Assembly: GCF_009914755.1 (NCBI RefSeq)
Contig: NC_060943.1
From: the human T2T-CHM13v2.0 reference genome, Homo sapiens
Length of the DNA: 64,000 nucleotides
Direction: 5' to 3' (one strand)
Both the position numbers and the translations under genes were made by a program. Positions 1-26,700 of the stretch are shown piece after piece. The notes under the pieces are model-generated. The model worked only from the letters and a program-made list of their open reading frames with translations. It was not told where the DNA came from and made no database searches. Position 1 is the stretch's first letter. Every line of letters starts with the position of its first letter.

Positions 1-2405
1 GGTCTGCGTGACAACCTGAGGGTGGGCCCGCTGTCATCTCATCCCTCTGACAGCTGGGGACACTGAGGCCAGGGAAGGGGTGGCTCACACTCTAGACTTT
101 TTCCCCCCCAGGCCTGTGGGGAGCAGGATACTAGGTGAAACTGACAGGGAGGATGCGTCCCTGCGAGGTTCTGGGTGTGAGGCTCAGTGCCCGACCTTGG
201 GGTAGCCAGGATGAAGCGTGGGGTGGGATAAGCCAGACTGAGGAGGGGCTCGTGGGCCCCAGGAAGGAGCTGGGATTTCCCCGTGGAGGCTCCTTGGGCG
301 AGCGAGTTGGGTGATCAGATTGGCAGCGTCTGGATATTTCACGGCTTGATGGTGGCATGAGCGGGAAGCAGGAGAGAGGAGGGCCAGATGGCAGGGCTGG
401 GGGGACTGGGCAAGGTGCAGGAGCAGATAAATGCAAGGAACCTGGTTGGGAGGCAGATGTGGCAGTGAGGGGGATGCGGGGCCCTGGAGGCCTCCCTCTA
501 GCTGGCCTCAGGACCCAGATGGGGGACAGGCGGAGTGTCAGTATCAAGAAAAGATGTCCCTGGGAGGAAGGGCTGAGTCTTGACTTCTTAAAGAGGCACT
601 GCCCAGCTAAACACTTGGGGGTCTGATGAGTCTCCAGGTCGGACTCCCTCCCCGCCATTGTGTCACTGCCAGGGGCACAGATAAGCATCCCCCCCGCCCC
701 AGTTTGGGGAATTTTCCAACACCTCATGGGGAGAAAAACAAGGAAAAACCAACAAGTGCAGGTGGAAATTATTCCATGGTGCTGCTGACAACAGTGGGAG
801 GGAGACAGTGCAGCTGACGGGGACCTCACCCTCCACCAGCCTTGAGGACAGGGTGGGTGGGAGCTGACAGTAATGTTCGCCTGGATCCAAATCAAAGCCT
901 GGAACGACCAAGTAACCGGCCTGCTGGGTCTGAACCACAGCCCTCTGGCCGCCTTTGGCCCCACTGAGCCCCCGTGTCACAGTGTCACTGAAGCGCCTTC
1001 CCTTGACGGGTCTGTGTTTCCAAATGAAAGGTGTCAGCAGGAAAGTTCCTGGTGCCTTCAGAGTCGACCGGTTCAAGGCCAGCTCACGAATCCACTGTGG
1101 AGACTTGCATTGGTGAGGTCTGTATGCACTTAGGAGGCACGCTGGGCTGTGAGGCCTGGGAGAGCTCTCCTGAAAGGGGACTCCGCAGCTCCCTCTGTGT
1201 CTGCTGTCTTAGCCCTGGACGGGGCCACCTTCTAGTTCTCGTATCTGGGTGGGTCACACGGGCCAGAATCTGGATGTCTGTGGCCGATGCAAAACCAATA
1301 GTGGCTGGGAAACACACTGGCTCTGATTTCTGCTTCCCTCTGGCATTACCATGGAACCGAGACACCGTAGGGGCATGACACCACCCTAGCCGAGGCCTGC
1401 CCACTCAGGATGGGGTTCATTTTCAGAAGCAAATAAGTGGTTCATTTCAGCAGCCTCTTGGAAATCCGCAGTTTAGACAGCTCGGCACGCTGGGCGATGG
1501 GATGGCCCCGGGAGGCGCCCGGCACCTGTCCTCACTGGCGCTCCAAGGTGTCTGATGGCACTTCCACCCCACCATGTGCAGGACATGCCTAGCCACTTCC
1601 CATTCATTCATTTACCGACAATGAAATTGTATCCAACTCCTTCAATAATTCGAAGCACGGCCTAGCTGATCTGGTATTTGCACTACTCTTAATGCGAACT
1701 TCCAAAAGAACCGTTCCGCTAACCTAGAAATGCCACTTCCTAATACACACATTTGCCTGAGACAGAAAGGCCTGCTTTTAAAGAAATACCAGAGAGGGAA
1801 GAGGTTTCCCGGGAACAGCCACACACGCAAATAACCCATTGATGGAAATTTGGGGTTTGTAAATTAGAGGGTTCTGGAGAGGCACCGCCGGGGCACCACC
1901 TCCACAAGTGAGGTGCGGGTGACCTGGGCCCCCCTGACTGCCAGCATGGACTGGGCTGCTCCTGCACAGGTAAAAACATGCCCTGAACAGCAGTCTCAGA
2001 ACGTCCACGCTGAAAGAGTCACGCTGCCAATCTGCCGGGCAGTCAGACAGCCCTCTTGGCATTTGCTCAGGGAAGTGGAATCATTCAAACCAGAGGAAGC
2101 AGCTGTGCCCTCTTCTAAGTTAGCACAAATAGTCAAGATCCAGTGAACCCAGAAACCACCAGCTGATCGGCTGAGCCCCCGAATGCCGTGAACATGGAGA
2201 GACGTCATCTTGAGTCCCCAGAGGAGAGCTGGTTATGGATGATTTTAGACAATGATACGACCCAAGGGGACAAACAAAAACAATTAAGGGTCCTGTCTTC
2301 ACTCAACCCATCCCTTCAGAGTGGCTGAAGTACACTATCTGATCATTTCCTCTGGAAAAAAACTGGGGTATTTGCAGTGGGAAAAGTGATTTTAAACAGA
2401 AAACA

Positions 2406-2735
2406 GGCCGGGCACAGGGGCTCATGCCTGTAATCCCAACACTTTGGGAGCCTGAGGCAGAAGGATCATTTGAGCCCAGAGTTCAAAGACCAGACTGGGT
2501 AGTAAAGTGAGACCTTGTCTCTATCAGAACATTTTAAAATTAGCCAGATGTGGTGGTGCGCGCCTGAGGTCCCAGCTACGTGGGAGGCTGAGGTGGGACG
2601 ATTGCTTGAGCCCAGGAGGTCAAGGCTGCAGTGAAGCTGTGACTGCACCACTGCATTCTAGCCTGGGCAACAGAGCGAGACTCATCTCCAAAAATGTAAA
2701 AACCAAAAACTTAGGGAAAAAAAAAACAAAAACAG
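2406..2735 (+). mobile_element. Alu (AluJ-like)
   Basis: Dimeric Alu with AGGTCAAGGCTGCAGTGA right arm, A-tail and AAACAGAAAACA TSD. Confidence 0.92.
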
Positions 2736-3306
2736 AAAACAACAGGGCTGCATCCAGGCCTGGGTGGAATTTGCTTTCCCACCAGGAGATGAGGGTGATA
2801 AAATGGCTGGCGCTATTTTAAAACTGAAGTTAACAATTGTTCTGGAACTACCAGAAATGCTAAGCCAAATGATACCTTGAAACCTTGGGTGTTTTTTTTT
2901 TTTTTATGCTTTTCGAAAAAACGAGCCCTTTGCGGGTTGGGGTCACAGGAAATAGAATTATGAATTTCAGAAAGAGAACAGTCATTTCTTCAAGCTGCCG
3001 TTCACCCCACTTACCTAACTCTTCCCTACCCAAGACAGAGTACCTGAGTCATGTGTGAAGAGTTCTGTTTTTTTTAAATCAGCGTTTAATATTTTTCCAC
3101 CAGAAAATAAATGAAGGGCTATTCAAGAAACTCTAGATAAAGCAGGTTTTGTTTCTGGCTTTTATTAACAATGTCACCATTTTGTATAGACCCCCAGTGC
3201 GCATCTAGGGTCAACAAAATCAAACTCACTGCCGTTGTAAAATATTTATAGGTCACCAAGAGCCAGAAACAGGTCAGGGTCTTGGGCGATTTAAATAAGC
3301 CACATG

Positions 3307-3590
3307 GGCCAGTCACGTGTAACCCCAGTACTTCAAGGTGGGAGGATCGCTTGAGGCCAGGAGTTCCAGACCAGCCCAGGCAACACAGCAAGACCCTACC
3401 TCTACAAAAAAAAAAAATTAAACATTAGCCTTGCGTGGTGTTGCACGCCTGTCGTCCCAGCTACTCAGGAGGCCAAGACAGGAGGATCGCTTGAGCCCAG
3501 GAATTCGAGGTTACAAGTGAGCTCTGATCGCGCCAATGCAGACCAGGCTGGGCAACACAGCGAGACCCTGTCACTAAAATAAATAAATTG
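3307..3590 (+). mobile_element. Alu (AluJ-like, small left-arm deletion)
   Basis: Left and right arm motifs, A-rich linker. Confidence 0.88.
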
Positions 3591-4421
3591 ACAAATAAGC
3601 CATAGGATAGCTGTGCACGGTAGAGATTATCAAGACGGCTCAGAAACAAATCGGGTGCTTTCTGTGCATTGACATGGCAGGGCTGTGTTCAAAGAGCCAT
3701 CCCAGGAGTCGAAGCATCTATAAATAACACGTCTCACACCTAATGATGAAGGAACTAACAAGCCCAAAGGAAGAAAGCGAGGGCATCACACATAGTGAAA
3801 CCAATTCTGGGAAGACAACACCTGAAGCTTTCAGAGAACAAGATTTTCATGTATCAAGGAAGCTGCTAAAAACTCCTTGAAGCGACCGCATGTTACAATC
3901 TGGAATATTTTTTCACACAGAGAAAAACAAAGCCAGGCTTTCGAAATCCCGAGATTTGCTTCCGAAAAGGCACTTAACTTTGCTCAACAGTTTTTTGGAG
4001 CTCTTTTTGTTTTGGCTTTCAGAGTGGCTGTTCTAGACTGGATTTCTTTTTTCATTGGAGCTGGTAACTGAAATTTAAAAGCTTTAAAAAAAAAAAAACT
4101 TCAAATTGCTCTTCCCTGGCGCGATCTGCCTGAAGTCCTTCAATTTGCACTTGTGGCACAAAATGCATGGGGCGGGACTGTGAGAACTTGTGCACAAAGG
4201 GCTTTTTGGGGACAGCAGAACCCTAATGTAACTTTCGCAATCTTCTTTTCATACTTCGGAAGTGTTTGACATCTTGGCTTCCAAAAACCAGTGAACACAA
4301 CAGCCTCGGTGCGTCAGAAATAATACAATGAATCTACCGTGAAGGACAGATAGGTCCCGCCTCCCTGCTGGAAGAAAACGTGCCCTTATGATAGAGCATC
4401 CAAACTGCGGCTCTTTTTTTT

Positions 4422-4427
4422 TTTATT
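4422..4427 (-). terminator. Candidate AATAAA poly(A) signal for the isoform ending ...FTSVS*
   Basis: AATAAA on the minus strand ~170 nt after the stop; it runs directly into a genomic A-tract, so apparent cleavage could be internal priming. Confidence 0.45.
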
Positions 4428-4597
4428 GAGAAACTGTTTTTCTTACAGAAGTGGCAGTGTAGAATAAATAACGCGAGGGACAGAGAGTGTGAGGTACCAA
4501 GAGGCTAAAGAAGCTGGGAGGTTTGCCTTTAAAAGGAGACAAAAATCCCAGGGAAGCTGCAAGCGGAAGGGAGTGGGGTGGCCCGGAGGCGGAGGAC

Positions 4598-4812
4598 TCA
4601 ACTTACAGAGGTGAAGTCTGCAAAGCCCGAGGCAGAGGCCTTAGAAGGTTTAGCTGCAGAGGAGGGGACAAATGGGTCTTTTCCACTAAACGGGTCCCCA
4701 AACCCCTTTTTACTTTGGAACGGGTCGCCGCTGTCAGCCCCGAGTGGCTGGAATGGATCGGGGGCCTCGGGAAAGTCTGCGGAACCAAGCTGGCTTACAG
4801 GTGTACTTTTAC
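4598..4812 (-). CDS. EPS15L1: EPS15L1 exon ~23: (G)[68 protein letters not shown], then VS* if the internal donor after 4607 is not used
   Basis: Long pyrimidine tract and TTCCAG acceptor; 4 DPF; GTAAGT at 4606-4601 followed by TGA at 4600-4598. Confidence 0.97.
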
Positions 4813-5334
4813 CTGGAAAGTTTAGGAGAAAAAAAAAAGGAGAAAGAAAGAAATATGAGTTACTCACCCGGACAGAGCAGAATGCTGGTGGGCACAAGCC
4901 CGGGGCGCTTCTCTGAGAAAAGCTTGTAACTTGGCTAACAGGCTGGACGGGGGTACCCTGGGGAATCCCAGTTTTAATCAGCTTTATCCCAGGGGCTTAA
5001 CGGGTTGTGAACAACACAGGAAAAACACTTCAGATGACTCCCATACACAACGCACACAGAGCAGCTAAAACTTGAGTTGTCCTAGAATAGTTTGCATGCA
5101 GGTACGTTTCAAACAGATTCATTTTAGCATGGCAACACATTTATTAACATACTAATTTAAAAAATCATGGCTGAGCAGAAAAATACACTGCAAGCTTCTA
5201 ACAGTAAAAAAAAAAAAAGGCAGAGGGGAGAGTTACTTGCAAATGAAAAGGAGGAATTAGTTTCACAACGTGGTATGGTTATTCGGTGTGTTAGTTATAA
5301 GGGTCTGCACACAGCTCTGCCATGCTGAGGTTTA

Positions 5335-5340
<6 letters not shown>

Positions 5341-5366
<26 letters not shown>

Positions 5367-5637
5367 TCAGAGACAGAGTCTTGCTCTGTCACCTGGGCTG
5401 AAATGCAGTGGTGCAATCATGGCTTATTGCGGCCTTGGCCTCCAGGGCTCAAGCGATCCTCCCACCTCAGCCTCCTACAGGCATGAGCCACCATGCGTGG
5501 CTAATTTTTGTATTTTTAGTAGAGATGGGATTTTGCCATGTTGCCCAGGCTAGCCTCAAACTCCTGCCCTCAAGTCATCTGCCCGCCTCAGCCTCCCAAA
5601 GTGCTGGGATTACAGGCATGAGCCACTGCACCTGGCC
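5341..5637 (-). mobile_element. Alu (AluJ-like) with long A-tail
   Basis: Reverse Alu; TTAAGTTCTTTT TSD on both sides. Confidence 0.9.
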
Positions 5638-8074
5638 TTAAGTTCTTTTTTAGCCCCCACTTCTGTCCCTCTGGTGTTGGTGGCTCCAAGGGGCAGCGTT
5701 TATCTGGGCCTTTCTGGGCTTCTGCCAAGCAGGGAACTCCAGGATGCCCGGTCCCAGCAAGGTATATCTTGACAGGGAGGTGAGAGAGAAGTGTTCAGAA
5801 ATGGAGGAAAATGACACTGTGTGGGGGACATGGCCTGAGGATGGTAGCTTTTCCCAGTGCATCCTGCCAATGTACCAGAACATTCCACCAAGAAGCAGAG
5901 GCCTGTTAAGATCTGCTTGGTGACGGGAGGTCCCACCTGACGGGCCTTCCAGCATCTGCAGTTTGCAGGCCAGCCGGGCTGACTCCATGCTCCTGACACC
6001 CCTCTATCTGCCCAACGGAGTCCCTGGGCATTCAACGTGGTCCACGCAGCACCCCAGACTGGAAGCTCAATAATATGCAACACGATTCCGGCGTGTTAAC
6101 TCTGGAAGTTTCGAAGCTAATGTTTAGAAAAAACCAGGAACTGCCTGTCCCTCCAGGGTTGACCTTGGATCTCTGGCTGCACCTCCAGAGAGCACCCTGG
6201 CTCCCAGCCACACCTGCCCCGCCCACCACCTGAGCCTGGGACACCTGCCTTCCTCATCCGGTAGAACGAGCCCACACAGGCCAGCCTCGGTCCCTCTCCA
6301 TGCCCAGATCTAAAGCCTTTCCCTCTGTTCCCCCAGCAGATCAGCCATCCCAGGCCTCATTTTTGAGGCCCCAGGTGTCCTTGTGGGCTCCGGGGCTACA
6401 GCCCCCATCTGCCACCTTTAGCTCTGGGCCTCGGCAAGGGAAAGTGCCTCCTCCCAGCTGGCCTCCGTTTCCTTATCTGTGAAGTGGAAATGAGAAGGAG
6501 GGCGCCAAACAAGGTGACATTCCTGGGGTCCAGGAGTCTCCTCCCACTCAGTGTCCTGCACCGCCGTGCCCAGCATAGGCCAGTGAGAACCTGGCCCGTA
6601 GCCCCCCCTTGCCTGTAGCCCTACTTCTGGAAATGGAAATTCACTTTTCTCTCAACCGGCAGTTCTGGGCCAGCATAAGGACTGCTGCTTTCTTTTTGCA
6701 TATTCAAGGAAAAACAGTCTTCCTTCCCACGGTTTGCACAGAAGGACTCGGAGACAAACTCCCCTGCAGCCCACCCTTGCGGCCTGCCTGTCCGCCTCTG
6801 CCCGTCCCACAGGGTTCCACCGGGGTCGCCGTTGCATCCTTAGCTGACCTCTGGCCACCAGCTGCGGGAGATCCTTCCAGACTCCTTGTCTGTGTGAGTC
6901 CATCTAAGAGGCTCCTCCTCAGGGTTGGAGGGCGAGCTGTCCTGGGCTCTATTAGGACTCACATGGATGAGAAAGAGGGGAGGTCGAGGCCTGGTATCAG
7001 TCTCCTCCTGTGGCCTCAAATCAATTCACTGTCAGACCCAAGGCCCAGTTAGCAGAGGGGGCCCTGCAATCTGGAAGGGGCCTATCTTTGCCAAAACTTG
7101 TGGGCAAGCCATGCTGGAGACCCTTCCCTAGAGGGGCAGTGCCCAGCCCACGCGGGCAGGACAGGAATGTGGCCCCTCTCCTTCCGACAGCGCCTGCCCT
7201 CTCAGGGCAGTCCCCACACCCGAGCTTTCTAGGTGTCTCCCTTTTTCTATCCCCAGATGTCCCTCCCACCTTCAGCTCTACTGCGGCCTCCTCCTACCCC
7301 GACCTCCCCGGGGCTGCAGAGAGCAGGGTGATCTGGCCCAGCCCGCAGACCCCGGGCTGGTTCCGCTGGCCTTGAGGAACTGCCTCACACCCCCACCTTG
7401 AGACAGCCTCCCATGCAGGGCCACTCCTGGTCCCAGGCATGAGCCAATGGTAAGCCAAGGCCTCGCTGCCAGGTCTCCCGGAGTTGCCCCGTTCCCTCTC
7501 CTAAGGGACGGGCAGGCAGCTCTGGCGGGCGGGGGTCAAGTGAGGCCTGCCCAGCCTCCTGTGAGCCCCAGGCTGTCCACTGGAGCAGAAGGGGCTCCCT
7601 AGGGCTCCTGAGCAGGATGGAGGGTGGGCGAGGGCCCCTCACCTCCACCCTCCCGTCCCTAGAAGCCTCATCTCCCTATCGGCCGCCCACCAGCTCGGCT
7701 CCCTTCCCTGTGAGCCAAACCCACCCAGCAAAGTGGCCTCAACACAGGTGGGCCCCAGCACCCTGCCCAGACTGCTTGAGGGCTTCTCCCGCTTGGGGAT
7801 GACACCCCAGTCTTGTCCAGGTGGCACCTCCTTCCCCAGGAACCCCCAAACCCAGGGCTTCTTTCCTGGCTATGCCTTGTCCCTCTGCCTGGAAGGCACT
7901 CCCAACTGGAATGCCATCACAGGCAGTGGCCTTCTCAGGGAAGAAATGGCAGCCCCTTCCCCATCATGCCTGTGTTCAGCTCTGCAGCCAAGCCCTGGGG
8001 CTGGGAGTGGCCCTGGAAGACGGTGTGGGGCATGGCGGCCACCCCCCTCAGCCTGTTTCTTAATCCAAACAAAG

Positions 8075-8400
8075 GGCTGTGTCCCCCCAACAATTGTTCA
8101 TACGTTCAAGTCCTAACCCCTGTGCCTTAGAATATAACCATACTTGAAGATAGCATATTTAAAGGGGTAACTGAGTTAAAACGAAGTCAAAGGATCAATG
8201 ACTGTCTTCACTGAAAGAACTTAGGACACAGATCTACACACAGAACAGCAATGTGAAGATGCACCAGGCCAAGGAGAGGTCTCAGAAGAAACCAACCCCA
8301 CTGGCGCCTTGATCTTGGACTTTGAGCCTCTAGAACTGCGGGACAATCCATGTCTGCTGTTTAGGCTGAGATAGAGCAAGTGTGAGCAGGGAGCCACCAA
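8075..8400 (+). mobile_element. MLT1-family (ERVL-MaLR) solo LTR remnant
   Basis: TGTGTCCCCCCAA..TTCATACGTTCAAGTCCTAACCCC start and CCTTGATCTTGGACTTTGAGCCTCTAGAACTG motif. Confidence 0.75.
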
Positions 8401-10321
8401 AGCCACCGGCAGGGGCACCCTGGGGGACAGTGTGACAGTGTCCTGCACCCCAGCCTGTGGGTTTGCAGGGGATAGGGACAGTGACCTCAGCCAGTCCCTC
8501 GAGCCCCTGCCTGCTTCTGCCCAGCTTCTCCCTCCACGGGAAAGCCCCCCCTCCCCCAGGGTCCCTCACCACTCTGCTTCCCGTGGCACTGGCCTCTGGC
8601 ACGGCTGAGGGTCAGCTCTGTGAAAAGCGGGCCCAGCATACCACAAATGCCAGCCAATACTGCCCCATGTCCCTGGTGCCCTCCAGCCCAGGGCTCGGCA
8701 CACAGTGGGCTTCAGGAGGTCCTGGTGAACCAGGTGCCACCTGTTACAGATTCCACGGGTCTCCAGGGACCTGGGGCCCTTTGGAGCAACACCCTGGGGA
8801 GCGAGAAGGGAATAAAGGCATCTGCCCTTCCTGGTTTGCAGGAAACAGCAATGTTACTGTGCATGCTTGGGTATTTGATTTTTCCTCGAATACCTATGTG
8901 ATATGGATCAAATAGCAAGATTCTAGCAGAGGAAACAGTTAAGTGTTTCCAGGGGAGAAGCTCAAAGTCCCAGGACACGGTGTAGCCCCCTGGGACGGGC
9001 AGCAAGTCCAGGGTGGACACTGCTTGATTTCTCGAAGCCGTTCCTGCAGGGAGTGATCACCTGAGGCAGATTTGCAAGAATGTGGAGGGAGGTGTAAAGG
9101 GAGGACGCCCCAGCCAGGCCCCCAAGAGCGACTGCCACGGTACAGAAGGTTCAAATAAATCAGTCATTTTTGAGCTGCTTTTCTTCTTCTTTTCAATGAA
9201 GATCTTCCTCCCTTGGTTTGGGGGGTTTAAAAAAAAGAAATTGGTTTTTGGGAGGAGCGGTTAAGAATTCTCCCTGCTACCATTTCAAGCTGAGGTTTCT
9301 GATGCGCAAAGAGATGTTCAGAGAGATGAAAAGCTTCGTTCACACCAAGAACTGCCTGTGCCTGGTTTTGCTCTGTTGCCGAAACCGTTGTTATTTAGAA
9401 ATCATGACTATGGTAATATGAAACCAGGGCACATCAACTGCTGGCCTCTTGTTTTCAGAAGGAACATCAACAACAACAACGGTTTTTTTCTCAGTTGTTA
9501 GTGTTTGTGCTTTGGTAAGAGAGGAGATTTTGGACCTGACACGTGTGAGGTCAGCCGAGTGCCCGGTCCAGCTCTCGACCTTGCTAATGACCAGACGCTT
9601 TGAGCAAAGAAAGCCCCCGGCATCACTGTAGGGCCACGGCCCTCAGCCCAAACTTCCCACTTTTGCTCAGCGATTTATTTTTAGCGGCTGTATTTTTCAA
9701 ACCTTCTAGGTCTAGTTCCTGCTTTTATGTAACCACTTCTGCTAACTCCTTAATCGTTTTTTCCGATTTTGTGAGGTATAGCTTATCTCAAACGTGACAA
9801 AGTAACTTTAATCTGCCTCCAGGCCCTGAAGCAAAAGCTGCCACGCGCACCCACGCCAGGGTTTTATACTTTTTTATGGCTCCAGAAAACATGAGTAAGG
9901 AGAGAGCTTTACTGACGCGCATTTCAGAAAAGGGGATGGAAATCATGAAAACAAAACCCAAAAAAGTGGGTATAGAAACATCTGGGAATGATGGCATCAA
10001 ACCAGGTGCCAGGCATCATCCTGGCACCTGGTTCGATGCCATCAATCCTAGATATTTGCAGCGGGAACTACCGGGGACCACAGCAGACGGCAGTGAATAA
10101 AGACAAATGAAATTAAAGACCCTCTTGGGTGTGCTGACTGCCTACCGCAGGGAGACTTCATTAACAGGGGGCAAGGGATACAAGACTGAAGAAAACACAA
10201 AATAGAACTTATTTTCAAACCACAGCAGTTTCAACAGTTACCCAAGCGGTGTACCGAAACCACACACAGGACTGACTTTAGCAAAAACAATATGAACCAA
10301 ATGGTTTACCACAGTATGTGC

Positions 10322-10357
<36 letters not shown>

Positions 10358-15500: not shown

Positions 15501-17589
15501 CCGGTCCCTGTGCCGCAGGGTGGGGATGGGGGCTACAGACCACATACAGCACGTCACCGTGCAAGGCGCTTCACCCACACACCCACCTGCTAGGCCTGAG
15601 TGGGTCCCATGGTCAGGCAGGAAAACTGAGGCTCAGGGAGGTTAAGTGACCCACCCGGGGCCTCCCTTTCCTCCAATGTCCAGAAACCAGCCTGATCAAG
15701 CAGTCCCCTGGATTCTAGCAGAATTGGCTGCCCAGAGGACAGAAGGAAGCGGCCTCAGTTCTCCTGTCCTGGCCTCACACATCAGCCATTTCCTGGCACA
15801 GAGGCCTAGCAGGGTTCTAGAAACCTCTGGGTGCCCTGGGATGGACAAACCCTGGATGGGAGCATGGGACATCAGACATGTTCCATGTGCCAGGCGGAGA
15901 GATGACAGAAAAGCTTGTTCCTTCATTGTGATTTCCATGAGTGCAGGTGTCAACGCTGTGTGCATGTTTAAGACTGCCCACTGGACAGCCTATGGGTCCT
16001 TCAGACTTTTTGTCAGTCTGTCTATCTCCACCAGCTCAAGGCTCGACCGCCAGGCTCACAGGGGGTCGCATTTCACCTTCCTCCTCACTCAGCCACGCTG
16101 GGACCCACGCATCTCGCGCAAAGCCCCAGCATCTGGGAAGCCCTGGGGTGGCCAGGGGAAGGCGGCCGTCACTGTGTGCTGGCCGTGTGGTCTCCCTGAG
16201 CAGAAAAAGCCTGGGGTAGCAAGAAAGGCAGAAAGGCTTTTTTTGGTTTGTTTGTTTGTTTTAAGAAAACATAAAGTCCAGCAGTTTGAAAACGTTGGAC
16301 TTTATGCTTAAAAAAAAAAAAAAAAATTCACAGATTAGCTTCACTATCTTCTGTCTTAAAGAAGCCAAGAAAACAAGAGATCTGCCTTGTGTCTTCCTGG
16401 CGAACTTTCTGAGCACGACTTCACCCGACACTCATCTGCTGACCGCTCTTGCCCATAACCAGAGGCCTCCTGGGCTGCACGTGGGTCTGTGCCGTGTGGC
16501 CAGGAACCGGGAAGGGAATTGTACAGAGCCCGGCTCTGATTCCCTTGACCAGAGAGCAAGGGTAGGGCAAGCATCTTCCTTTGCAATTCCCCAAAGAGCC
16601 AAACACTTCTCCCCAACATGTGACTCACCAAAGGTCAACCACTGGGTCAACTCAGTGTTTGGACTGTTAGAGGTTAGTACGGAATCACAGCACAAATAAT
16701 GCTGCAAGCTCAAACGGCAACCACCACACGGTCTGTACCTACCACCCAGCAGCGAGTACAATGCAGAATTTTTCTGTTCAGCCATTGCTTCTGGGTAAAA
16801 GAATCAAATGAGAAATATTTAGGCCTCCACACAGATCTGCAGTTGCTCCGGACTTAAAATGCTGCGCGTGCATTGGCTGTTTTAGAGAATGTTCTGAAGC
16901 TCATGGCTTGGTTCTCGTTACTCCTGTCTTGGGGCAGGAGGCAGGTCACTGGGTGTAGACCTGGCCCTGCTGCCACCTTGCTGTGTGACCTTGGGGAGCC
17001 CCCATGACCTCCCTCCCCGCCTTTCCTCTTCCAGGAAATGGGCATGGCCTGGCCTGTCTCCCTCACGGGTCTTGCTGGGACCTAGTGAGATAAGAACTGT
17101 TCAAGCACTTCCTAAGGGCCCATCAATGTTAATATATTTCTGCAGAGCACCGAGTGGCACAGCAACCATCAACCACAGCAGAACAAAGATGCAGTGGCCT
17201 GTGCCACGAGTAAAGGAGCCCAGGACCCCCTGGGTCTCAAATTGTGCAACAGCTCCCTAAAAAGCCTGAACCCTGAAGCCAGGCCCAAGGAAGTCACCCA
17301 AACTCCCGTTATCAAACGTTCTACTTTTAACAAGCATTCTTTTCTGCTTTCGAAGCCCACAGTACACTAACAGCAGAAGCCAAGGTGGGGTGGGTAGGCT
17401 TGCAGAGGGAGACACGATGGGAGGTGATAACTGAGGGAAAGTTCAAAAGCAGACCCAGCGCCGGGTTTAGGTACGTGGGGAGGCGGGGGTGGCGGTTTCC
17501 ATGAAACACTGAAAATGAAGCTTTGCACCTGTGAGCTGTTGAGTGGGATGGCTCCTCCTCAGGGCCCAGCAAATACGGCACTGCTCGGC

Positions 17590-18289
17590 AAGTGTGTGCA
17601 CCCATATGAGAATACGTGCACATGTGTGTAAATGTGTGTACACGTATGTAAGCACAGAGTGTGCATGCCCGGGTGTGTATGAGCACACACGCACGCATAT
17701 GTGTGTGCACGTTTGCATGCATGCATTATGCAATATCTGTGTAATGCTCACCTGTATTCATGTATATGTTCACATGTGAATATGTGCATGTCTCAATGAA
17801 TGCATGCACATATATAAGCATGGAGGGTGTGCATGCCCAGCTGTTGTCTATGAGAGCATGTGTGTGTGCAGGCATGCACAATGCAGTATGTGAGTGCATG
17901 CTGCTCATCTCTATGCATGCATGTGTGTACTGACAAGAGAATATGCACACATGTCCACAGATGCATATAAGCATGGAGAGTGTGCACGGAGGGGTGCATG
18001 GGAGAGTGCGTGTGTGCCTGCATATGCGTACATGCAGGCACATGCGAGAATACTCATGTGATGCAGTATGTATGTGAATGCATGCTCACCTGTATGCATG
18101 TGTGTTCATGTGCAAACAGGTGCATGCATGCATGTGTCTGCAGGCGTGGAGGATGTGTGTACACAGGGTACACATGTGCATGCAAGAGCATACACGTGTA
18201 CGTGCACATACATGCATAAAAATACATGGCCGCACGTGGGAATGTGCACATGCATGTGTGCCAGCTGTGTGCATGCATTGTGATTATGC

Positions 18290-18320
<31 letters not shown>
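17590..18320. repeat. Alternating purine-pyrimidine low-complexity tract (CATG/TG-rich) ending in (TG)n
   Basis: About 730 bp of mostly RY alternation with many TGCATG/CATGCA words. Confidence 0.9.
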
Positions 18321-18321
<1 letters not shown>

Positions 18322-19947
18322 TTCTGCTCCCATCTTTTAGGCAGAGTGAAGAGGCCCACTGCCGTTCCATCAGGAAGCCAACAAGGATCCCTGAAGAGCC
18401 ACTGCCTCTGTGTAAGGCACAGGTGGCCTCTTGCAGATGGAAGGGAGTCCCTTTGTTGTTTTGTTTTTCCTCCTGATGGTAAATGTCTTTGATGTGTGGC
18501 TTACAGAAATGATCTCTTTACGCATCTGTATCTGCTCAACAGTTCACAGAAAATCTGCTCTAAATCCACACAGCCCATACTTGGTCATACTTTTTCTCCT
18601 GACTCATCCACAAGAAAGCCAACCTGGGCACTGCGGGCTGGGTCCCCATCCTCCTGAGAGAAGGCCATGGCCAGCCCAGGGGACAGGAGGAGAGAGGCGG
18701 TGTTCTAAAAATAACTTCCCCTATGTTCACCTCTACTGACAGGTGGCCGAGGTGCAGGACCGAGGGTCACTCGTAACTAGTGAGCTGGGGGCATGCGGAG
18801 CCTGCTAGGTCCATTCCAGGACCTGCGATGACACAGGGGCTGCAAAGTGAGGCCAGTGGCAGATTCCAGGGGAGGGGCAAGTGTAGGCAGGAGGGTGAGC
18901 ACCACTTCCCTCGCTGGAGCTGATGGAAAGGGCTCGGGGGCATGCCCTATCTAGGGAAGACAGGTAACAGAAGGCATGATCCTGGGAGTGCGTGGGTCTC
19001 CTGTGGCTGCCCACAATTCAGGGACAGTGTGGGGAACAGTCTGCCTGGAGGTTAGAGAATAGGAGGCGTCCCAGACCGGGGCACAGATGGAACAGGCAAT
19101 GACCGGGTAGATAAATGGATCAGGGAGCTGCAGTGACTCCTTCTGCCACTTGAAGCAATAGCTTTCTGTTTGAGAGTCTGGCCAACTGGCCGCCGGCCTA
19201 ACTCTGTCACACGAGAGAAATCCCACGTGTGAGTTAAAGGGCTTCAGAATCCTCAGGGGACCCTCGAGGGCCAAGGCTAGGAGACATTGGCAGCACTGGC
19301 CATGGGGAAGAGGGGCAGGGCCTGTAGGAAGTCCCCTCCTCAGAGCTGTGCGTTGAGATGCCTGGGCAAGCTGGGGCAGAGGGGAGCCCCGAGCCATCCT
19401 GCCTCCTCACATCAGATGCCACCAAGGACAATCTCCCGCTCCCTCCACTCTCAGTCCTGAAGCAGCTGGGAAGGGACTGGACCAAGCAGCGACTCCTGCC
19501 ACCCTCACCCCCAACAGGCCCTCCCTGAGCACGGACAGGGAGAAGGACGGAAGAGAAGGGGCCAGAGTGGCCACAGGGCTGCCGGCCATGAGTGGCTCCT
19601 GAAGTATAGCCAGGGCGTCGGGGTGGCACTGACATGCTCAGGCGGAGGCCGCACGAAGCGCCCCCAGCCACAAGGGGAGCTCTAAGGCCAAGGCTTTGTG
19701 CACTCCAATACAGAGCCAGAAGCCCAGGGGCCCACAGGACGGGGCGAGGGCGGGCAGGCAGGAGGCACACACCACGCACATACGGCACTTGCGTGGACCT
19801 GGGCAGCTGGGCCGGGGGGACCCTCTTGCTCCCCACACAGGGTCCCACGGCATCTGCTGCTACTCTGGGCTGGTGAGCAGGGAGGCCCTGGTCCCCCGCC
19901 ATCCGGCACCGGTAGGCGGTGGCTGCGAGAGAAGAAAGCTTACTGAC

Positions 19948-20080
19948 CGCTGGGCGGTTTAGGCCGTGGAGGAGCAGGTTTCTTCGGAGGCAGAGCAGGA
20001 GTGTCCTGTTTACTTTTAAAGGGGTCATCTGAGAATCCTGCCCCTCCCAAGGAGGAGGTGAAAGGGCCAGAAGGTGGGGG
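19948..20080 (-). CDS. EPS15L1: EPS15L1 exon ~22 (133 nt): [44 protein letters not shown](G), proline-rich
   Basis: Acceptor CCTCTCTTACAG, donor GTCAGT; PALPPK SH3-type motif; phase 0 to 1. Confidence 0.97.
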
Positions 20081-20839
20081 CTGTAAGAGAGGACATGAAA
20101 GAGAGGCAAAAATAGTTGTTAAAACAAAGGTGACGGATGTCCACTGAACAGACGCTCATGCTCCAAGGGCCCTGGCAAGGCCTCCTACCCTCTGGACTGC
20201 ACAACATGGCCCTGCTTGGACGTGGGGTCTCTTTCAAGCCCCATGCTTTCCTCCACCCTCAACAGCAGGGGCCCTCTGGCCTGTGGGTGATGAGCTGCCC
20301 AACATAGGGTGGCAGAGAGCAGTCCCATACCTCCACGGGCTTCTAGCACCAAGGGCATCCCCAGTCACACGAGGCACACTGGGTCTTTCCTGACTCCAGG
20401 ACTTGGCACATAGGGTCCCTTGGGCCTCCTGCTTACACTTCAGAGACACGCCCCACCCTCACCTGTATGCTGGCTGTGGTGCTTGGCACATGCCCTGGTG
20501 TGCCGCCTCCCCACTGAGCTGGCCGGTGTGGTCACTGCCTTCAGTTAGTGATGGACAGCTCCAGGTGCTGGGTCAGCTGGCACCAGACTTTCTTCCTCCA
20601 TGCCTCTGGGCTGCACATGCAGCACCTCAGGTGGAAGTGCATCCTCACATGCCCGGCCACCCGCACTGGTCAGCATGCCCACGCCACCTCCACTGGGCTC
20701 TGACCACCTCTGGCCCGGACCCTCGGTCAGCCTCCATCACACCCATCCACATCCTCCACCCCACACCTGCTGTCTCAAACCCAAATCGGACCATATCCTC
20801 CAGCTTAAAGAGAGAGACAGTCAGAGATAGTTATAACAA

Positions 20840-21045
20840 TTGGATAGATGAATGGATGGTGGGTGGGCAGATGGATGGAATGGTAGTTGGATGAATGGAT
20901 AGACATATATGTGGATTAATGGACGAATGAATGGCGGGTGGGTGGATGGATGGATGGATGGGCAGGTAGAGACAGGGAGGCGGGTGGGTGGTAGACAGGG
21001 AGGCAGATATGTGGCGACGTCTTGCAGGTAGGTAGGTAGGTAGGC
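20840..21045. repeat. Degenerate (TGGA)n/(TAGG)n simple repeat
   Basis: Seen directly. Confidence 0.85.
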
Positions 21046-21847
21046 ACTTCCTATAGGGAAGCTCCAAGCTCTCATTAAGGCATGCAGGGACTTCATCGCT
21101 GCCCCAGCTGCCTGATTTTTCAGGCTCACCTCTGAAGTCACCCCTCCCCTCACAATGCCTCCTTAGTCCCCAGAACCCACTGACCCCCCAGCCGCTGACT
21201 CAGCCTCCTGTTTCCAAGTCCTGCAACACTCAGGTCTCCTGCTGGGGAACTCGGCCCACCTCGTCCACCAGGAACCCCTCTCCTTGCTCAGAGCCTGGCT
21301 GGACCCCACTGCCGTCCCCCAGAGCTCTCCCAGGGCTCTCCCTGGGGCTGCTTCCTGCCACCCACGCCTGCACTGCTCACTGAGCCACAGAGACACGCTT
21401 CCAGGCCTCTCCCACCTGGAGGGCAAGCACAGTCCTCTCCCCGGCACCTGCTGCCTCCAGGCCTGTGATGAGCAGATACTAAGCGCCGCCACCTGGGGGG
21501 ATGCTTGTCCCTCACTTGGAGCGCCGGTGAGGCACAGGGGAGCCAGGGTCTCCATCAGCCACAGAAGGGCCAGCATATCTCAGGCGTCTGAGGGAAGGGG
21601 CTGGGGTGTCCCAGGAGGGAGAAAATCACTTTCTATGGGCAGAAGAAGGATGAGTAACCACTCTTACTAAAACAGAAAATAATTAAGTCTGTAATAAAAT
21701 AGAAAATAACTACATTTTTACTAACAGAGGAAACACATTGTTACAAAAATGCAAAATAACTAGGAAATTATAGGACAAAGAGATAACACTGCGACAGGAA
21801 ACAAAAGGAATGGGCAGAAATAGGGGTAAAAATGATCATGTGTTCCT

Positions 21848-22152
<305 letters not shown>

Positions 22153-22394
22153 GATCATGTGTTCCTCCAAGAGCATAGAAGAGAAAGATCAGAGTGGGGC
22201 AGAGGTGGAGGGAGGGGCCGGGGGTCTTTAACTTTCTCCCCAGCAGGGAAGGCCTAGAGACAGAGAACAGGTCAAGAGTACAAAGGCACACTCCCAGGGT
22301 TTCCCTCGAGAATCTGAATGCAACAGATTGCAGATGTGGGGGAAAAGGTCTACCACCACGTCCAGCAGACAGTCTTAGAGGTATGGCTGCCTCT

Positions 22395-23735
22395 GCCTCC
22401 AGCATCTAGTCACACCGATGCAGCTGACTAAGGCTCCAGCGTCTAGTCACACTGACACGGCCATCTAGGCCTTCAGTGTCTAGTCACACAGACAAGGCCA
22501 TCTAAGGCTCCAGCGTTTAGTCACACCAATGCAACCATCTAAGGCTCCAGCGTCTAGTCACACAGACGTGGCCGTCTAAGGCTACAGTGTCCAGTCACAC
22601 CAGTGCAGCTGTCTAAGGCTCCAGTATCTAGTCACACAGATGTGGCCATCTGAGGCTCCAGCATCTAGTCACACAAAAGTGGCTGTCTAAGACTGTAGAC
22701 TAGCCACACCAATGCAGCCATCTAAGGCTCCAGCACCTAGTCACACAGACACGGCCATCTAAGACTCCAGTGTCTAGTCACATAGACGCGGCTGTCTGAG
22801 GCTCTAGCTTCCAGTCACACCAATGCAGCTGTCTAAAGCTCCAGCATCTAGTCACACTGATGCAGCCAGCTAAGGCTCCAGTGTCTAGTCACACAGATGC
22901 GGCTGCCAAAGGCTCTGGCATCTGGTTACACAGATGCGGCCGTCTAAGGCTCCGGCATCTAGTCGCACAGACGCAGCCATCTAAGGCTCCAGCATCTAGT
23001 CACACAGACGTGGCCGTGTAAGGCTCCAGCATCTAGTCACACCAAAGCGGCCATCTAAGGCTCCAGTGTCTAGTTACAGCAATGCAGCCATCTAAGGCTC
23101 CAGCATCTAGCCACACAGACACGGCCACCTAAGGCTCTGGCGTCTAATCACACAGACGTGGTCATTTAAGGCTCTAGCGTCTAGTCACACAGACACAGCC
23201 GTCTAAGATTTTAGTGTCCAGTCATGCAGATGCAGCCGTCTAGGCTTCTAGCGTTTACTCATACCAATGCAGCCGTCTAAGGCTCTAGTGTCTAGTCACA
23301 CAGACATGGCCCTCTAAGGTTCCAGGGTCTACTCACACACACGCAGCCATCTAAGGCTCTAGCGTCCAGTCACACCGACGTGGCCATCTAAGGCTCCAGG
23401 GTCTAGTCACACAGACGCAGCCATCTAAGGCTCTAGTCACACTGACACAGTCACACTGACACATCCAGTCACACTGACACAGCTATTTGAGGCTCTAGCT
23501 TCCAGTCACACCGATGCGGTCGTCTGAGGCTCTGGCATCTAGTCACACAGATGCGACTCTCTAAGTCTCTACAATTTAGTTGCACAGACATGGCCGTTTA
23601 GGCCTCTGGAGTCTAGTCAGAGACGTGGCCACCTGTGTCTCTGGCAGCTAGTTATAGAGATGCAGTCATCTAGGCCTCTAGCATCTAGTTACAGAGATGC
23701 ATCGATCTGGGCTATTTGCGTCCCGTCACAGAGAT
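22395..23735. repeat. 37-bp minisatellite, ~36 degenerate copies (CTAAGGCTCCAGCATCTAGTCACACAGACGCGGCCAT)
   Basis: Period measured at 22502 to 22539 and 22981 to 23018. Confidence 0.95.
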
Positions 23736-26700
23736 ATGGCTGCCTCGGACCTTGTGTAGTCCTAGAGTCGAGGTTGCTCGGCCCAGTCAGAGCCACATCA
23801 GAGACAGAACAGGGAGGTGGCCCCTCTAAGAGGCAGCCTACCCATTCCAGGTCCCCCCGATAAGGGCAGTGGCAGGTGCCCCCAGGGAGGGGAAGGGGCC
23901 CCAAAGGCTCCTGCACAGATGACCCCACCAGATCCCTTCCCTGGGCTTCACGCCGCCCTCTGAAGCTGCCCAGGCAGGAGACACTCGCTCTGTGCTGATC
24001 TTCTCACCTAATAATAGGCCCAGTGACCTGGCAGGGGGTCCCACTGTCAGCACCTCTGCCTTACACACAAGGAAACTGAGGCACACAAAGGAGGCGCAGC
24101 CTGCCCACATCACACAGCAGGTCCACGGCGGATCCAGGGCTGCCACATCGTCTGCCTCCCAGACTGGGGCCACCAGACGCTGCCCTCAGCTGCCGAGGGC
24201 CACCCCAGTGGTGGGTCCAGGGCCTCGTCCTGGGCAGACTGTCCTGCCCAGGCTGGAACCCCAACCCTGCCACCTACTCAACACCCTGTGCCTTGGTTTC
24301 TTCATCTGTAAAATGGCAAGAGTGACAGAGCTCGGAAGGCTCCGGCAAGAAGGAAATGAGGTGCCATGTGACAGGCATCAGTCCACTCACTGGCACTAGA
24401 TAAAGTTGGCACATGGACCACACGACAATGATCACACCAAGTACGAAGCTGCGATTGGAATCTGGGAGTGCCCCCATCTGCTGCCCCAGTTGTCCCCAGG
24501 CCTGTCCGAGACATGAGGGGCAGTGTCGGCCTGCAGCTTAGCTTTAAAATGGGCCGTTTAGGGTCGGCTGTTTGGGAAAGAATGGGGGAAAAACACTGGC
24601 CCGTCTGTGGGTGCTTCTGCGATTCATGGAACATGTCCCTGGGCCTAGGGCCCGTGCGAGTCCCCCGCGGCCTGGGATGGGGAGCCAAGCAGGTCTAGAT
24701 GGGAAGTGGTGTGACCGGCTGGGCCTTGTCCTCCCTGGGCATGTGCTGGCTTCTGGGCCACATCTCCAGACTCGGAGTGGGGCCTCGGTTCCAGTGGCTG
24801 CAGTGAGCCTTTCTACCCTCTGTGTCGCGCAATAGGACCCGGGCAATAAAACCACACTCAGCCTGGACGTCCAAAGTTGTAAGACCTGGTGACACACTCA
24901 AATCAGAGCCGCCTAACCCTCCAGGCTGACCGGGGACACCTCGGGCCAAGCCGGCTTGGCGCCTCCCATGTGTGTTTAAACCCACGAGGCCAATTGGCAA
25001 CTCGCGAGGCGACAGGCTTTCAATAAACGCCTGGCACTGCCTCCGCAGTGAATCAGATCACTCCTAGCTCCAGAATGCCCGCGTCATTTCCGAATCCCAA
25101 TTTTCATGACTTCAAGTTTCCCAAGAAGCCTCCTTGGGGACTCAACTCTTTCCTACTCGGGCAGCGGCTTCAAGGAAAATCTCTATTTTTAGAAAGGTTT
25201 CAGTAAAGCTGTCAGGGGCTCTCTGGGCTCGGCAAGAGTGAAGTGTGCTTAAAATAAAAGGAAGACAGAAAAAGCTACTATGAAAACCAGCTCTAAGAGA
25301 AACACGTTTGAGTTCACCAGTTGAAGAACTGGTTCAAAACAGAAGACTGAATTTGTAAACAGCAGCCCTAAATATCAATGCACAGCTTTAAACAATTGAG
25401 AAGTTGCTAAAAATGGGCTGACGACTAACCCAGTATTTCACAGATGGCTTTTTTTTTTTTTCAGGGCAGAAGAGGGTGAAATAAGTTGGACTCTTGTTTT
25501 TATTCTCAAATGCTCCCTGGAAACATACTTTGGGGAATCTGTTTTTAAAGTGAGCTTATGTCACATAGGCTTGATACTGTCTAGAAAAATCTCTTCAGGT
25601 GAGGGTGGGGCCTCAACTAAGAGTGCAGGCCCGAAGAGCCTCCCAAAGGAAACTTCTAGAATCAGGCTGTGGGCTGTGACTCTCCTCAGCAAAGCCACGC
25701 AGAGGTAAGGTGCTTCAATTCAGGGACTTACAAAAGGGCCTCCCTGCTCTGCTCAGATGGGGAAAAGTTGATGATGGTTTTTTTTTGTTTTTTAAAAAAA
25801 CACCTTCTTGCCACTTTCATTTCCCTTAGCATTTTATTTATATCCACAATGTTGTTCTTGAAAAACAGATAGGTAACCAAAAAGGAAAAACAGAGCTGCA
25901 AGGTCAGGGTTGAGCTCAGAATGCGGCTGTACAAGTGTCATGAAGGCAGCTGATGGAACGCTGGAATCAAAACAAGATAGTATTGGAGACCCATTTTCCA
26001 CAGCTCTGTCCAACTCTGTCCTGGCCCGGCACCGCCAATAGGAAGTGAGACCGGCTCTGAAATCACAGCTGCATGTGTGTGAAGAGCCCCTGGTTTCAGG
26101 GCCCAAGGACAGGCAGAGGGCGGTCATTAGATCCCGGCCCTAGCTCAGGCTCTGCTAGCTCTCCCTCCCTCTGCTCACAGTGAGAGGAGGAAGACAGATC
26201 CAGCCTCCCAAAGGAAGAGGAGTCCACTTGCGACAACCAGAAACGACCAGGACGCCTGAGGGACTGCTGCCACCGTGTGGCCAACGTTTTCTGCTTTCGG
26301 GAGATGGTTTCCCGCCTGCCCAGGAGCCTGTGCACTGGGCCCTAAATCTTCTGCCAGTCCCAAACCGTGTCACAGCGTGGCATATGAGGGATGGAGGCCT
26401 TCTCCGTGTGCTGGAAGGAGGGGGGCGCCATGCCAGGGCCTCTGGGCTCCCTCTGCCCAGGCTCATCTGTGTAAACACACACCCTGCCTCGGTCAGAAGT
26501 GGGATCTGCTGCGCCGCCAGGGCACGCACACACGCGTCTTTGAAAACCTGAACAGAATCTCAAGTGCTTCTCGGAATCTGTGTTCTGTGATCACAAGTTG
26601 CGACCGCTGCCAACCCCAAGATGCTCAGAGACTCATCTGCTCCACCAGCTGAGTGAACACGGGGCAGCCAAGGGAGACTGCCCAGTCACACTGGCACCTG

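What the first reader, a model, noticed from the sequence alone, without database searches (positions are those of the whole stretch)
1616..25900. Possible unannotated system for diversifying the EPS15L1 C-terminus in the last three introns
Seen: the 1-28 kb region has only four Alus, against about 25 in 29-64 kb. It contains at least a dozen pyrimidine-tract+AG acceptors on the sense strand. In the phase set by the upstream exon they give either stop-free symmetric cassettes (108 nt phase 0; 45, 15, 60, 6 and 48/162 nt phase 1) or short, often Lys/Arg-rich tails (LPAPMKKEIQSRTATLKAKTKRAPKNC*, ALEDAFKRRASCKAR*, GRKIFIEKKKKSSSK..., NNIVDINKMLREMKVARRCFFKKQKK...*). QKI, RBFOX, YCAY and UG-rich arrays lie between them. 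Established: the EPS15R C-terminus carries AP-2-binding DPFs, an SH3-binding Pro-rich motif and, in the long form, UIMs. Inference: tissue-specific splicing and polyadenylation may swap the UIM tail for polybasic (membrane-binding or NLS-like) tails, or send the mRNA to NMD. Caveat: AG/GT pairs and Lys codons in A-rich DNA arise by chance.
Basis: partly seen in the sequence, partly recalled or inferred. Interest (0 to 1): 0.8.

Follow-up and report, generated by a model that had tools for sequence, protein, structure and literature searches.

The report
EPS15L1 tail splicing: known, extras chance

Summary
The sequence facts hold. All 16 listed acceptors have an AG at the stated coordinate, the phases and peptides reproduce, and there are 4 Alu-like segments in 1-28 kb against 25 in 28-64 kb.

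The proposed "unannotated system" does not stand out from background. Acceptor-like AGs occur at 5.19/kb on the sense strand, 4.91/kb on the antisense strand, 5.99/kb in the gene's other unmasked introns and 4.88/kb in 85 kb of unrelated chr19 introns. Symmetric stop-free cassettes number 35 in the true phase, 39 and 46 in the wrong phases, and 44 antisense. Lys/Arg-rich tails and the QKI, YCAY and RBFOX motif counts also sit at background or are strand-symmetric.

What is real is already known. RefSeq lists 11 coding transcripts. Nine different proteins come from these introns, with or without the ubiquitin-binding tail. One reader site, 16790, is the annotated 48-nt cassette. A published RT-PCR spans the same introns in mouse.

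The Alu-poor 28-kb block is unusual, in the lowest 0.7% of chr19 windows, and I could not explain it. Junction reads and cross-species conservation could not be tested here.

The parts
27955..28037 (-). Constitutive coding exon. Its donor (first intron base 27954) leaves phase 0 and is the branching point for four annotated outcomes.
   Evidence: RefSeq exons, phase, donor sequence. The forward primer of the published mouse RT-PCR maps here at 28012-28031.
25815..27101 (-). Annotated alternative last exon (NM_001438228). It adds one residue and then a stop, giving a 750-aa protein without the Pro-rich segment or the UIMs. AATAAA at 25838-25833 lies 18 nt before the annotated end.
19948..20080 (-). 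Annotated 133-nt alternative exon carrying one DPF and the Pro-rich segment. It shifts the frame by +1.
   Evidence: A 133-bp EPS15L1 exon is shown as differentially used in single-cell long reads in a figure legend of PMC10925193. Identity with this exon is inferred from the length.
16743..16790 (-). Annotated 48-nt in-frame cassette (16 residues) in NM_001438224, XM_054321639 and XM_054321637.
   Evidence: Acceptor score 8.82 (36th percentile of real sites). Donor score 6.1, with a stronger unannotated donor at 16629 (score 8.3) giving the 162-nt version.
4406..4812 (-). Annotated 206-nt exon 4607-4812 with four DPF motifs; with the 133-nt exon it restores the frame. Alternative donor after 4714 gives a 99-nt form. 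Read-through of donor 4606 reaches a stop at 4598-4600 and a poly(A) site at 4406 (AATAAA at 4427-4422), giving the 864-aa UIM-less form.
17620..18320 (.). Low-complexity block rich in CA, CATG and TGCA. It holds 12 of the 21 sense-strand TGCATG in 1-27954 and 18 TGCATG on the antisense strand. It lies 830-1530 nt upstream of the 48-nt cassette.
10998..11703 (.). Minisatellite, 37-bp period, about 18 copies. It is G+T-rich on the sense strand and is the main 'UG-rich array'. It contains no acceptor-like AG scoring at least 6.
22397..23433 (.). Minisatellite, 37-bp period, about 28 copies, unrelated in sequence to the one at 10998-11703. It contains no acceptor-like AG scoring at least 6.
1..30069 (.). 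Block poor in interspersed repeats. It has four Alu-like segments (2406-2702, 3313-3595, 5345-5637, 21843-22157). No masked repeat of 100 nt or more lies in 5644-21946 or 22158-30069.
1616..25856 (-). The 15 listed acceptors without RefSeq support: 25856, 25247, 14708, 14459, 12213, 11832, 10898, 10569, 10185, 9825, 9211, 4912, 4067, 1756, 1723. I read these as background pseudo-acceptors.

Best explanation
The last introns of EPS15L1 hold a known and annotated set of alternative 3' processing choices, plus ordinary intronic background. The annotated logic is as follows. The 133-nt exon (19948-20080) and the 206-nt exon (4607-4812) each shift the frame and together add 339 nt. The ubiquitin-interacting motifs sit in the distal last exon, just outside the window. 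They are therefore read in frame only when both exons are included (910 aa, or 926 aa with the 48-nt cassette) or both are skipped (797 aa). Four other choices give UIM-less proteins of 750-864 aa that end after one to five extra residues: skipping one of the two exons, using the donor at 4714, reading through donor 4606 to the poly(A) site at 4406, or using the alternative last exon 25815-27101. The 15 further acceptors, the cassettes, the Lys/Arg-rich tails and the motif 'arrays' are what any 26 kb of intron yields when searched by eye. Shown here: the exon structure, frames, tails and statistics. Inferred: that the listed sites are not meaningfully used.
For: - Annotation: 13 RefSeq transcripts, 11 of them coding, give nine different proteins from these introns. 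Three keep the UIM exon in frame and six do not. The frames were worked out. A weak Pfam UIM match (E 0.025, below the gathering score) falls in the last exon only. AATAAA lies 18 and 16 nt before the two annotated intronic ends.
- Literature: a preprint validated complex splicing in N2a cells with Eps15l1 primers (10.1101/158519). Those primers map to exon 27955-28037 and to the UIM exon. An 'alternate terminator' event for EPS15L1 appears in TCGA SpliceSeq-based work (PMC9485890).
- Acceptor density: AGs scoring at least 6 occur at 5.19/kb sense, 4.91/kb antisense, 5.99/kb in the other unmasked introns of the gene and 4.88/kb in 85,316 nt of unrelated chr19 introns.
- Cassettes: symmetric stop-free cassettes number 35 in the true phase, 39 and 46 in the other forced phases, 44 antisense, and 36-43 in the gene's other introns.
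- Tails: 18 of 453 tails have K+R of at least 25% in the true phase, against 16 of 477 and 23 of 472 in the wrong phases and 13-24 on the antisense strand.
- Motifs: ACTAAY 7 against 4.9 expected, YCAY 498 against 489, TGCATG 21 against 13.6 with 28 antisense, TGTGTG 58 sense and 58 antisense.
- Poly(A) signals for the basic tails: none within 3.9 kb after the 9211 tail, the nearest 818 nt after the 4067 tail, and the 25856 tail runs past a known cleavage site.
Against: - The acceptor count exceeds first-order block shuffles: 140 against 117.5 +/- 7.7, with 0 of 100 shuffles reaching it. The antisense strand (127 against 102.9, 0 of 100) and the gene's other introns (197 against 173.1, 1 of 60) exceed their shuffles as well.
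- A few listed sites are good by sequence: 11832 scores 15.3 (95th percentile of real sites) and 10569 scores 11.2 (63rd).
- The repeat-poor block is a real outlier and suggests constraint of some kind.
- TGCATG in 17620-18320 is about twice its dinucleotide expectation: 12 against 5.9, with 4 of 1000 shuffles reaching it.
- My acceptor matrix is crude. It rests on 315 sites from GC-rich chr19 genes with pyrimidines pooled, and 5 of the 15 annotated acceptors in the window score below 6.
- RefSeq is not the fullest annotation. GENCODE, junction reads and conservation were out of reach.
Confidence: 0.85

Rival explanations
1. One reading: an unannotated, regulated set of a dozen cryptic exons and terminal exons replaces the UIM tail with polybasic tails or sends the mRNA to NMD, under QKI, RBFOX, NOVA or UG-binding factors.
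For: The sites exist as described. One of the 16 is a true annotated cassette (16790). The region is Alu-poor. There is a TGCATG-rich block upstream of the 48-nt cassette. Site 11832 is a very strong acceptor by sequence.
Against: There is no enrichment of acceptors, cassettes, basic tails or motifs over the antisense strand, wrong phases or other introns. Three of the four basic-tail acceptors score poorly (9211 at 0.04, 4067 at 0.27, 25856 at 6.09) and lack a suitably placed poly(A) signal. No GCATG lies within 300 nt downstream of any of the four annotated alternative exons. No paper found links EPS15L1 splicing to these factors (only the listings and the passages of the papers I opened were seen).
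Confidence: 0.04
2. Some of the listed sites, most likely 11832, 10569 and 10898, are used at low level as splicing noise or unproductive NMD-bound events without a designed function.
For: These three score at the 95th, 63rd and 45th percentile of real acceptors. The gene is described as having high-complexity splicing in this region.
Against: They are not in RefSeq. Site 11832 pairs only with a frame-shifting 44-nt exon, and 10898 and 10569 have no donor scoring at least 2.5 before their stop. There were no expression data to test this.
Confidence: 0.35
3. The Alu-poor 28-kb block reflects selection at the DNA level, on enhancers or other regulatory elements for EPS15L1 or a neighbour such as KLF2, and not on splicing.
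For: The block is in the lowest 0.7% of 8812 chr19 28-kb windows for masked repeats, with sharp edges near 0 and 30 kb. RefSeq lists seven reporter-active or hESC enhancer elements in 1-28 kb. Reader sites 9211 and 14708 fall inside two of them (9169-9238 and 14551-14720).
Against: Annotated elements are about as frequent in 29-64 kb. There are no CpG islands; CpG observed/expected is 0.21-0.53 per kb bin. Conservation could not be measured. Old repeats under 100 nt are not in the mask list. No paper was found; none of the 15 listed papers (of 534 holding at least two of the terms) contained the word EPS15L1.
Confidence: 0.3

Closest known systems
RefSeq-annotated EPS15L1 C-terminal isoforms (NM_001258374, NM_021235, NM_001438224 to NM_001438228, NM_001258375)
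   Same: Same introns, same donors and same principle: exon skipping, an alternative donor, intronic polyadenylation and an alternative last exon keep or remove the UIMs, DPFs and Pro-rich segment.
   Different: The annotated UIM-less forms end after one to five extra residues that are not basic.
High-entropy (complex) alternative splicing events described with Whippet (preprint 10.1101/158519)
   Same: Mouse Eps15l1 was one of the events tested by RT-PCR in N2a cells. The primers map to the exon before these introns and to the UIM exon.
   Different: I saw only the methods text, one results paragraph and figure legends. The figure with the Eps15l1 bands is not held, so I do not know which isoforms were seen.
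Eps15b, the endosomal short isoform of the paralogue EPS15 (PMC2373575)
   Same: Isoform diversity in an Eps15-family adaptor with a change in localisation. I saw only the search listing and the start of the abstract.
   Different: From recall, Eps15b differs at the N-terminus and not the C-terminus. I did not test this here.
Transposon-free regions of mammalian genomes
   Same: Stretches of 16.3 kb (5644-21946) and 7.9 kb (22158-30069) carry no masked repeat of 100 nt or more, on the most Alu-rich kind of chromosome.
   Different: The class and its usual link to developmental regulators are recalled, not tested. Whether short old repeats are present, and whether the desert is conserved, could not be checked.

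Membership tests
Annotated EPS15L1 exons (RefSeq RS_2025_08) | The acceptor coincides with the 5' end of an exon in a RefSeq transcript. | tested here: not met
   Only 1 of the 16 listed acceptors (16790) coincides. Site 25856 lies inside the 3' UTR of exon 25815-27101. The other 14 are intronic.
Functional cassette exons as a set | More acceptor-like sites, or more symmetric stop-free AG...GT pairs in the true phase, than in control sequence. | tested here: not met
   Acceptors: 5.19/kb sense, 4.91/kb antisense, 5.99/kb in the gene's other introns, 4.88/kb in unrelated introns. Cassettes: 35 in the true phase, 39 and 46 in the other forced phases, 44 antisense.
Intronic polyadenylation isoforms (composite or skipped terminal exons) | AATAAA or ATTAAA 10-30 nt before a cleavage site, downstream of the in-frame stop and within a plausible 3' UTR length. 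| tested here: inconclusive
Met for the two annotated ends: hexamers at 25838 and 4427 for ends 25815 and 4406. Cleavage-site data were not available.
RBFOX-regulated exons | (U)GCAUG within about 300 nt of the regulated exon, typically conserved, on the sense strand. | tested here: not met
   There are 0 GCATG within 300 nt downstream of any of the four annotated alternative exons, and 0-2 upstream. The cluster at 17620-18320 is 830-1530 nt upstream of the 48-nt cassette and is richer on the antisense strand (18 against 12). The 300-nt rule is recalled. Conservation was not testable.
NMD-coupled poison exons | A stop-containing cassette with high conservation and junction reads that rise when NMD is blocked. 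| not testable with these tools
Transposon-free regions | At least 10 kb without any transposon-derived sequence. | tested here: inconclusive
   There is no masked repeat of 100 nt or more in 5644-21946 and no Alu-like match there. The repeat table omits stretches under 100 nt and gives no family names. The whole-genome search scored only the Alu candidates.

The most novel reading that the evidence does not exclude
The sharply bounded 28-30 kb Alu-poor block over the last introns of EPS15L1 is kept free of insertions because it holds dense cis-information. That information would set the choice between UIM-bearing and UIM-less isoforms, through frame-coupled exons and two intronic poly(A) sites. 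On this reading a few unannotated sites with strong signals (11832, 10569) would be real tissue-restricted exons or terminal exons.
Probability: 0.08. Interest if true: 0.45.

Novelty: already known. Interest (0 to 1): 0.1.

Why it matters
The evidence here points to something more modest. The switch between forms with and without the ubiquitin-binding tail exists and is already catalogued. In the papers I could search, I found no functional comparison of these EPS15L1 C-terminal isoforms, so that question seems open. It is a bench question, not a new sequence feature. The unusually repeat-poor block is the one observation worth a look with conservation and chromatin tracks.

Tried and rejected
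- **First acceptor matrix.** It was trained on 315 chr19 acceptors and favoured C-rich tracts, so it under-scored this gene's own T-rich acceptors. I replaced it with a version that pools pyrimidines at -20 to -5. This is still crude and is not MaxEntScan.
- **Rfam scan of 1-30 kb.** No family reached its gathering score, so no intronic small RNA explains the repeat desert.
- **CpG islands.** None were found, so a CpG-island or Polycomb-type domain is not the explanation.
- **The two 37-bp-period minisatellites.** They are unrelated in sequence (local score 29, shuffles up to 31) and hold no good acceptors.
- **Long ORFs.** There are 18 ORFs of at least 130 aa in 1-28 kb across both strands. 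I did not pursue them.
- **Whole-genome search with 6001-26000.** Only the single Alu's relatives were scored (39 of 7485 candidates), so it says nothing about old repeats.
- **Literature.** Searches on EPS15L1 with splicing, Rbfox, microexon, nuclear splice variants and transposon-free or ultraconserved terms gave no paper on the proposed tails or regulators.
- **Searches not run.** I did not run the search for homologous proteins or the Atlas search. Only single exons (70 aa or fewer) can be given by reference, and the length filter would hide full-length isoforms, so a blank would mean nothing.
- **Not testable here.** Junction or long reads, poly(A)-site atlases, GENCODE, and conservation in other vertebrates.

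Full report
**Setting.** The window is chr19:16492001-16556000 of T2T-CHM13, and EPS15L1 runs on the minus strand. RefSeq has 13 EPS15L1 transcripts here, 11 of them coding.
- 27955-28037;
- the alternative last exon 25815-27101;
- the 133-nt exon 19948-20080;
- the 48-nt cassette 16743-16790;
- exon 4607-4812, with an alternative donor after 4714 and a read-through form ending at 4406.

The distal last exon lies just outside the window, at window coordinates -1926 to -1322. I fetched it as L021.

**Checking the observation.**
- All 16 listed acceptors have AG at the given coordinate on the sense strand. The donors 27954, 19947 and 4606 are the annotated ones.
The four quoted peptides and the cassettes of 108, 45, 60, 6 and 48/162 nt all reproduce. 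I could not place the 15-nt cassette among the listed acceptors.
- The Alu count is exact. A blastn with the window's own Alu copy finds 4 segments in 1-28 kb and 25 in 28-64 kb. The masked fraction is 3.5% against 26.6%.
- Acceptor 16790 is the annotated 48-nt cassette, so 1 of 16 matches RefSeq. Acceptor 25856 lies inside the 3' UTR of the annotated alternative last exon.

**Is the acceptor set more than chance?** I built an acceptor matrix from 315 annotated AG acceptors in 200 kb of other chr19 genes. I pooled C and T in the pyrimidine tract after the first version proved biased.
- On this scale 273 of 315 training sites and 10 of the 15 annotated acceptors in the window score at least 6.
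Site 11832 (15.3) and 10569 (11.2) are good. Sites 9211, 4912, 4067 and 1723 score between -0.6 and 2.5.
- Outside exons and masked repeats, the sense strand of 1-27954 holds 129 AGs scoring at least 6, or 5.19 per kb. The antisense strand has 122 (4.91/kb). The other unmasked introns of the gene have 5.99/kb. Sense-strand introns in 85,316 nt of unrelated chr19 genes have 4.88/kb. At the score of the real 48-nt cassette (8.8) the figures are 1.57, 1.77, 2.36 and 1.77 per kb.
- Against first-order shuffles in 500-nt blocks the sense strand does show an excess: 140 against 117.5 +/- 7.7, with 0 of 100 shuffles reaching it. The antisense strand (127 against 102.9, 0 of 100) and the gene's other introns (197 against 173.1, 1 of 60) show the same. 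The excess is therefore a general property of genomic sequence and not of this strand or region.

**Cassettes and tails.**
- With loose thresholds (acceptor at least 6, donor at least 3, length 6-200 nt), the three introns give 333 AG...GT pairs. Of these, 113 are symmetric and 35 are stop-free in the true phase.
- The two other forced phases give 39 and 46, the antisense strand gives 44, and the gene's other introns give 36-43.
- Every AG must yield either an open cassette or a tail with a stop, so the description alone carries no information.
- Tails of at least 10 residues with K+R of at least 25% are 18 of 453 in the true phase, 16 of 477 and 23 of 472 in the wrong phases, and 13-24 on the antisense strand.
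- The four basic tails are weak on other grounds too. The acceptors of 9211 and 4067 score about 0. The 9211 tail has no AATAAA or ATTAAA for 3.9 kb after its stop, and the 4067 tail has none for 818 nt. The 25856 'exon' would meet the annotated end at 25815 only 41 nt after its acceptor, before its stop at 25728. Only 10569 has both a fair acceptor and an ATTAAA 129 nt after the stop.

**Motif arrays.** Counts on the sense strand of 1-27954, against block shuffles:

| Motif | Observed | Expected | Antisense |
|---|---|---|---|
| ACTAAY | 7 | 4.9 | 5 |
| YCAY | 498 | 489 | 569 |
| TGCATG | 21 | 13.6 (z 2.1) | 28 |
| TGTGTG | 58 | 24 | 58 |

- The TGTGTG excess comes from simple repeats and from the 37-bp minisatellite at 10998-11703.
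- Twelve of the 21 TGCATG lie in one 700-nt low-complexity block rich in CA and CATG (17620-18320). There the count is about twice the exact dinucleotide expectation: 12 against 5.9, with 4 of 1000 shuffles reaching it. The antisense strand has 18.
- That block lies 830-1530 nt upstream of the 48-nt cassette. No GCATG lies within 300 nt downstream of any of the four annotated alternative exons.
- I read this as a degenerate microsatellite. A distal RBFOX role is not excluded.

**What is really there.** Translating the RefSeq models and following the frames gives a compact logic.
- The 133-nt and 206-nt exons each shift the frame and together add 339 nt. The 48-nt cassette is neutral.
- The last exon carries the UIM region. 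A weak Pfam UIM match (E 0.025, below the curated cut-off) falls there, and there was no match in the two upstream exons.
- The UIMs are in frame only with both exons included (910 aa, or 926 aa with the cassette) or both skipped (797 aa).
- Four routes lose the UIMs. Skipping the 206-nt exon alone gives 796 aa. The 4714 donor gives 829 or 845 aa. Read-through to the 4406 poly(A) site gives 864 aa, or 754 aa when the 133-nt exon is also skipped. The alternative last exon 25815-27101 gives 750 aa. All end after one to five extra residues, none of them basic.
- The same choices change the number of DPF motifs and the presence of the Pro-rich segment.
- AATAAA hexamers lie 18 and 16 nt before the two annotated intronic ends.

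**Literature.** For every paper below I saw passages only.
- The Whippet preprint (10.1101/158519) lists mouse Eps15l1 among events tested by RT-PCR in N2a cells to validate complex splicing. Its primers map, with three mismatches each, to human exon 27955-28037 and to the UIM exon. The amplicon therefore spans exactly these introns. The figure itself is not held.
- PMC10925193 shows a 133-bp EPS15L1 exon in cell-type-resolved long reads. I infer from the length that it is exon 19948-20080.
- PMC9485890 uses an EPS15L1 'alternate terminator' event, and PMC11311179 reports PCR of four EPS15L1 isoforms.
- PMC6093180 names EPS15L1 among genes with PUF60-sensitive exons, but the exon is in a supplement I could not open.
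- Reviews and the knockout paper (PMC6912373, PMC6350104, PMC11889595) do not compare C-terminal isoforms in the passages that matched my search terms.
- No listed paper ties EPS15L1 splicing to RBFOX or to microexon programmes.

**The repeat desert.** This is the one observation that is truly unusual.
- The first 28 kb has 3.5% masked sequence. That is the lowest 0.7% of 8812 overlapping 28-kb windows on chr19 and the lowest 0.55% of 1083 windows lying wholly inside genes. The edges are sharp, with neighbouring 5-kb bins at 54% and 36%.
- At the Alu rate of the rest of the window, 19.4 would be expected and 4 are seen (Poisson P about 3e-5).
- It is not a CpG-island domain and holds no Rfam family.
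- RefSeq lists seven reporter-active or hESC enhancer elements in it. Two of them overlap reader sites 9211 and 14708.
- I could not measure conservation, so the cause stays open. Candidates are constraint on splicing and poly(A) choice, DNA-level regulatory elements, or something else.

**Verdict.** The sequence facts are confirmed. The claim that they form an unannotated diversifying system is not supported by any statistic I could compute. The real diversification of the EPS15L1 C-terminus is already annotated and partly published. Expression and conservation data, which I could not reach, would settle whether any of the 15 extra sites is used.

Noticed in passing
window 1-30069: A sharply bounded block poor in interspersed repeats: 3.5% masked, in the lowest 0.7% of chr19 28-kb windows. 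It has no CpG islands and no Rfam hits. The cause is unexplained.
   Followed up: partly
window 10998-11703 and 22397-23433: Two intronic minisatellites, both with a 37-bp period (about 18 and 28 copies) but unrelated in sequence. Neither appears in the masked-repeat table.
   Followed up: partly
window 17620-18320: A 700-nt degenerate CA/CATG low-complexity block starting from a (CA)n run. It has 17 GCATG on the sense strand and 22 on the antisense strand. It could act as an RBFOX-binding platform, but its strand symmetry points to a repeat origin.
   Followed up: partly
window 16629-16790: The annotated 48-nt cassette has a stronger unannotated donor 114 nt further on (16629, score 8.3 against 6.1). 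That donor would give a 162-nt in-frame, stop-free version. An ACTAAC lies between the two donors at 16678.
   Followed up: no
window 19948-20080 and 4607-4812: The 133-nt and 206-nt exons are frame-coupled (together 339 nt), so the UIM tail is read only if both are in or both are out. RefSeq marks the 133-skipped, 206-included, distal-exon transcript as non-coding (NR_047665).
   Followed up: yes
window 55476-56426: The processed pseudogene RPS2P51 lies on the plus strand inside an EPS15L1 intron. It ends 160 nt from coding exon 56586-56658, whose acceptor is the weakest in the window by my matrix (-0.14).
   Followed up: no
This hints that any function of these spots is at the DNA level.
   Followed up: no
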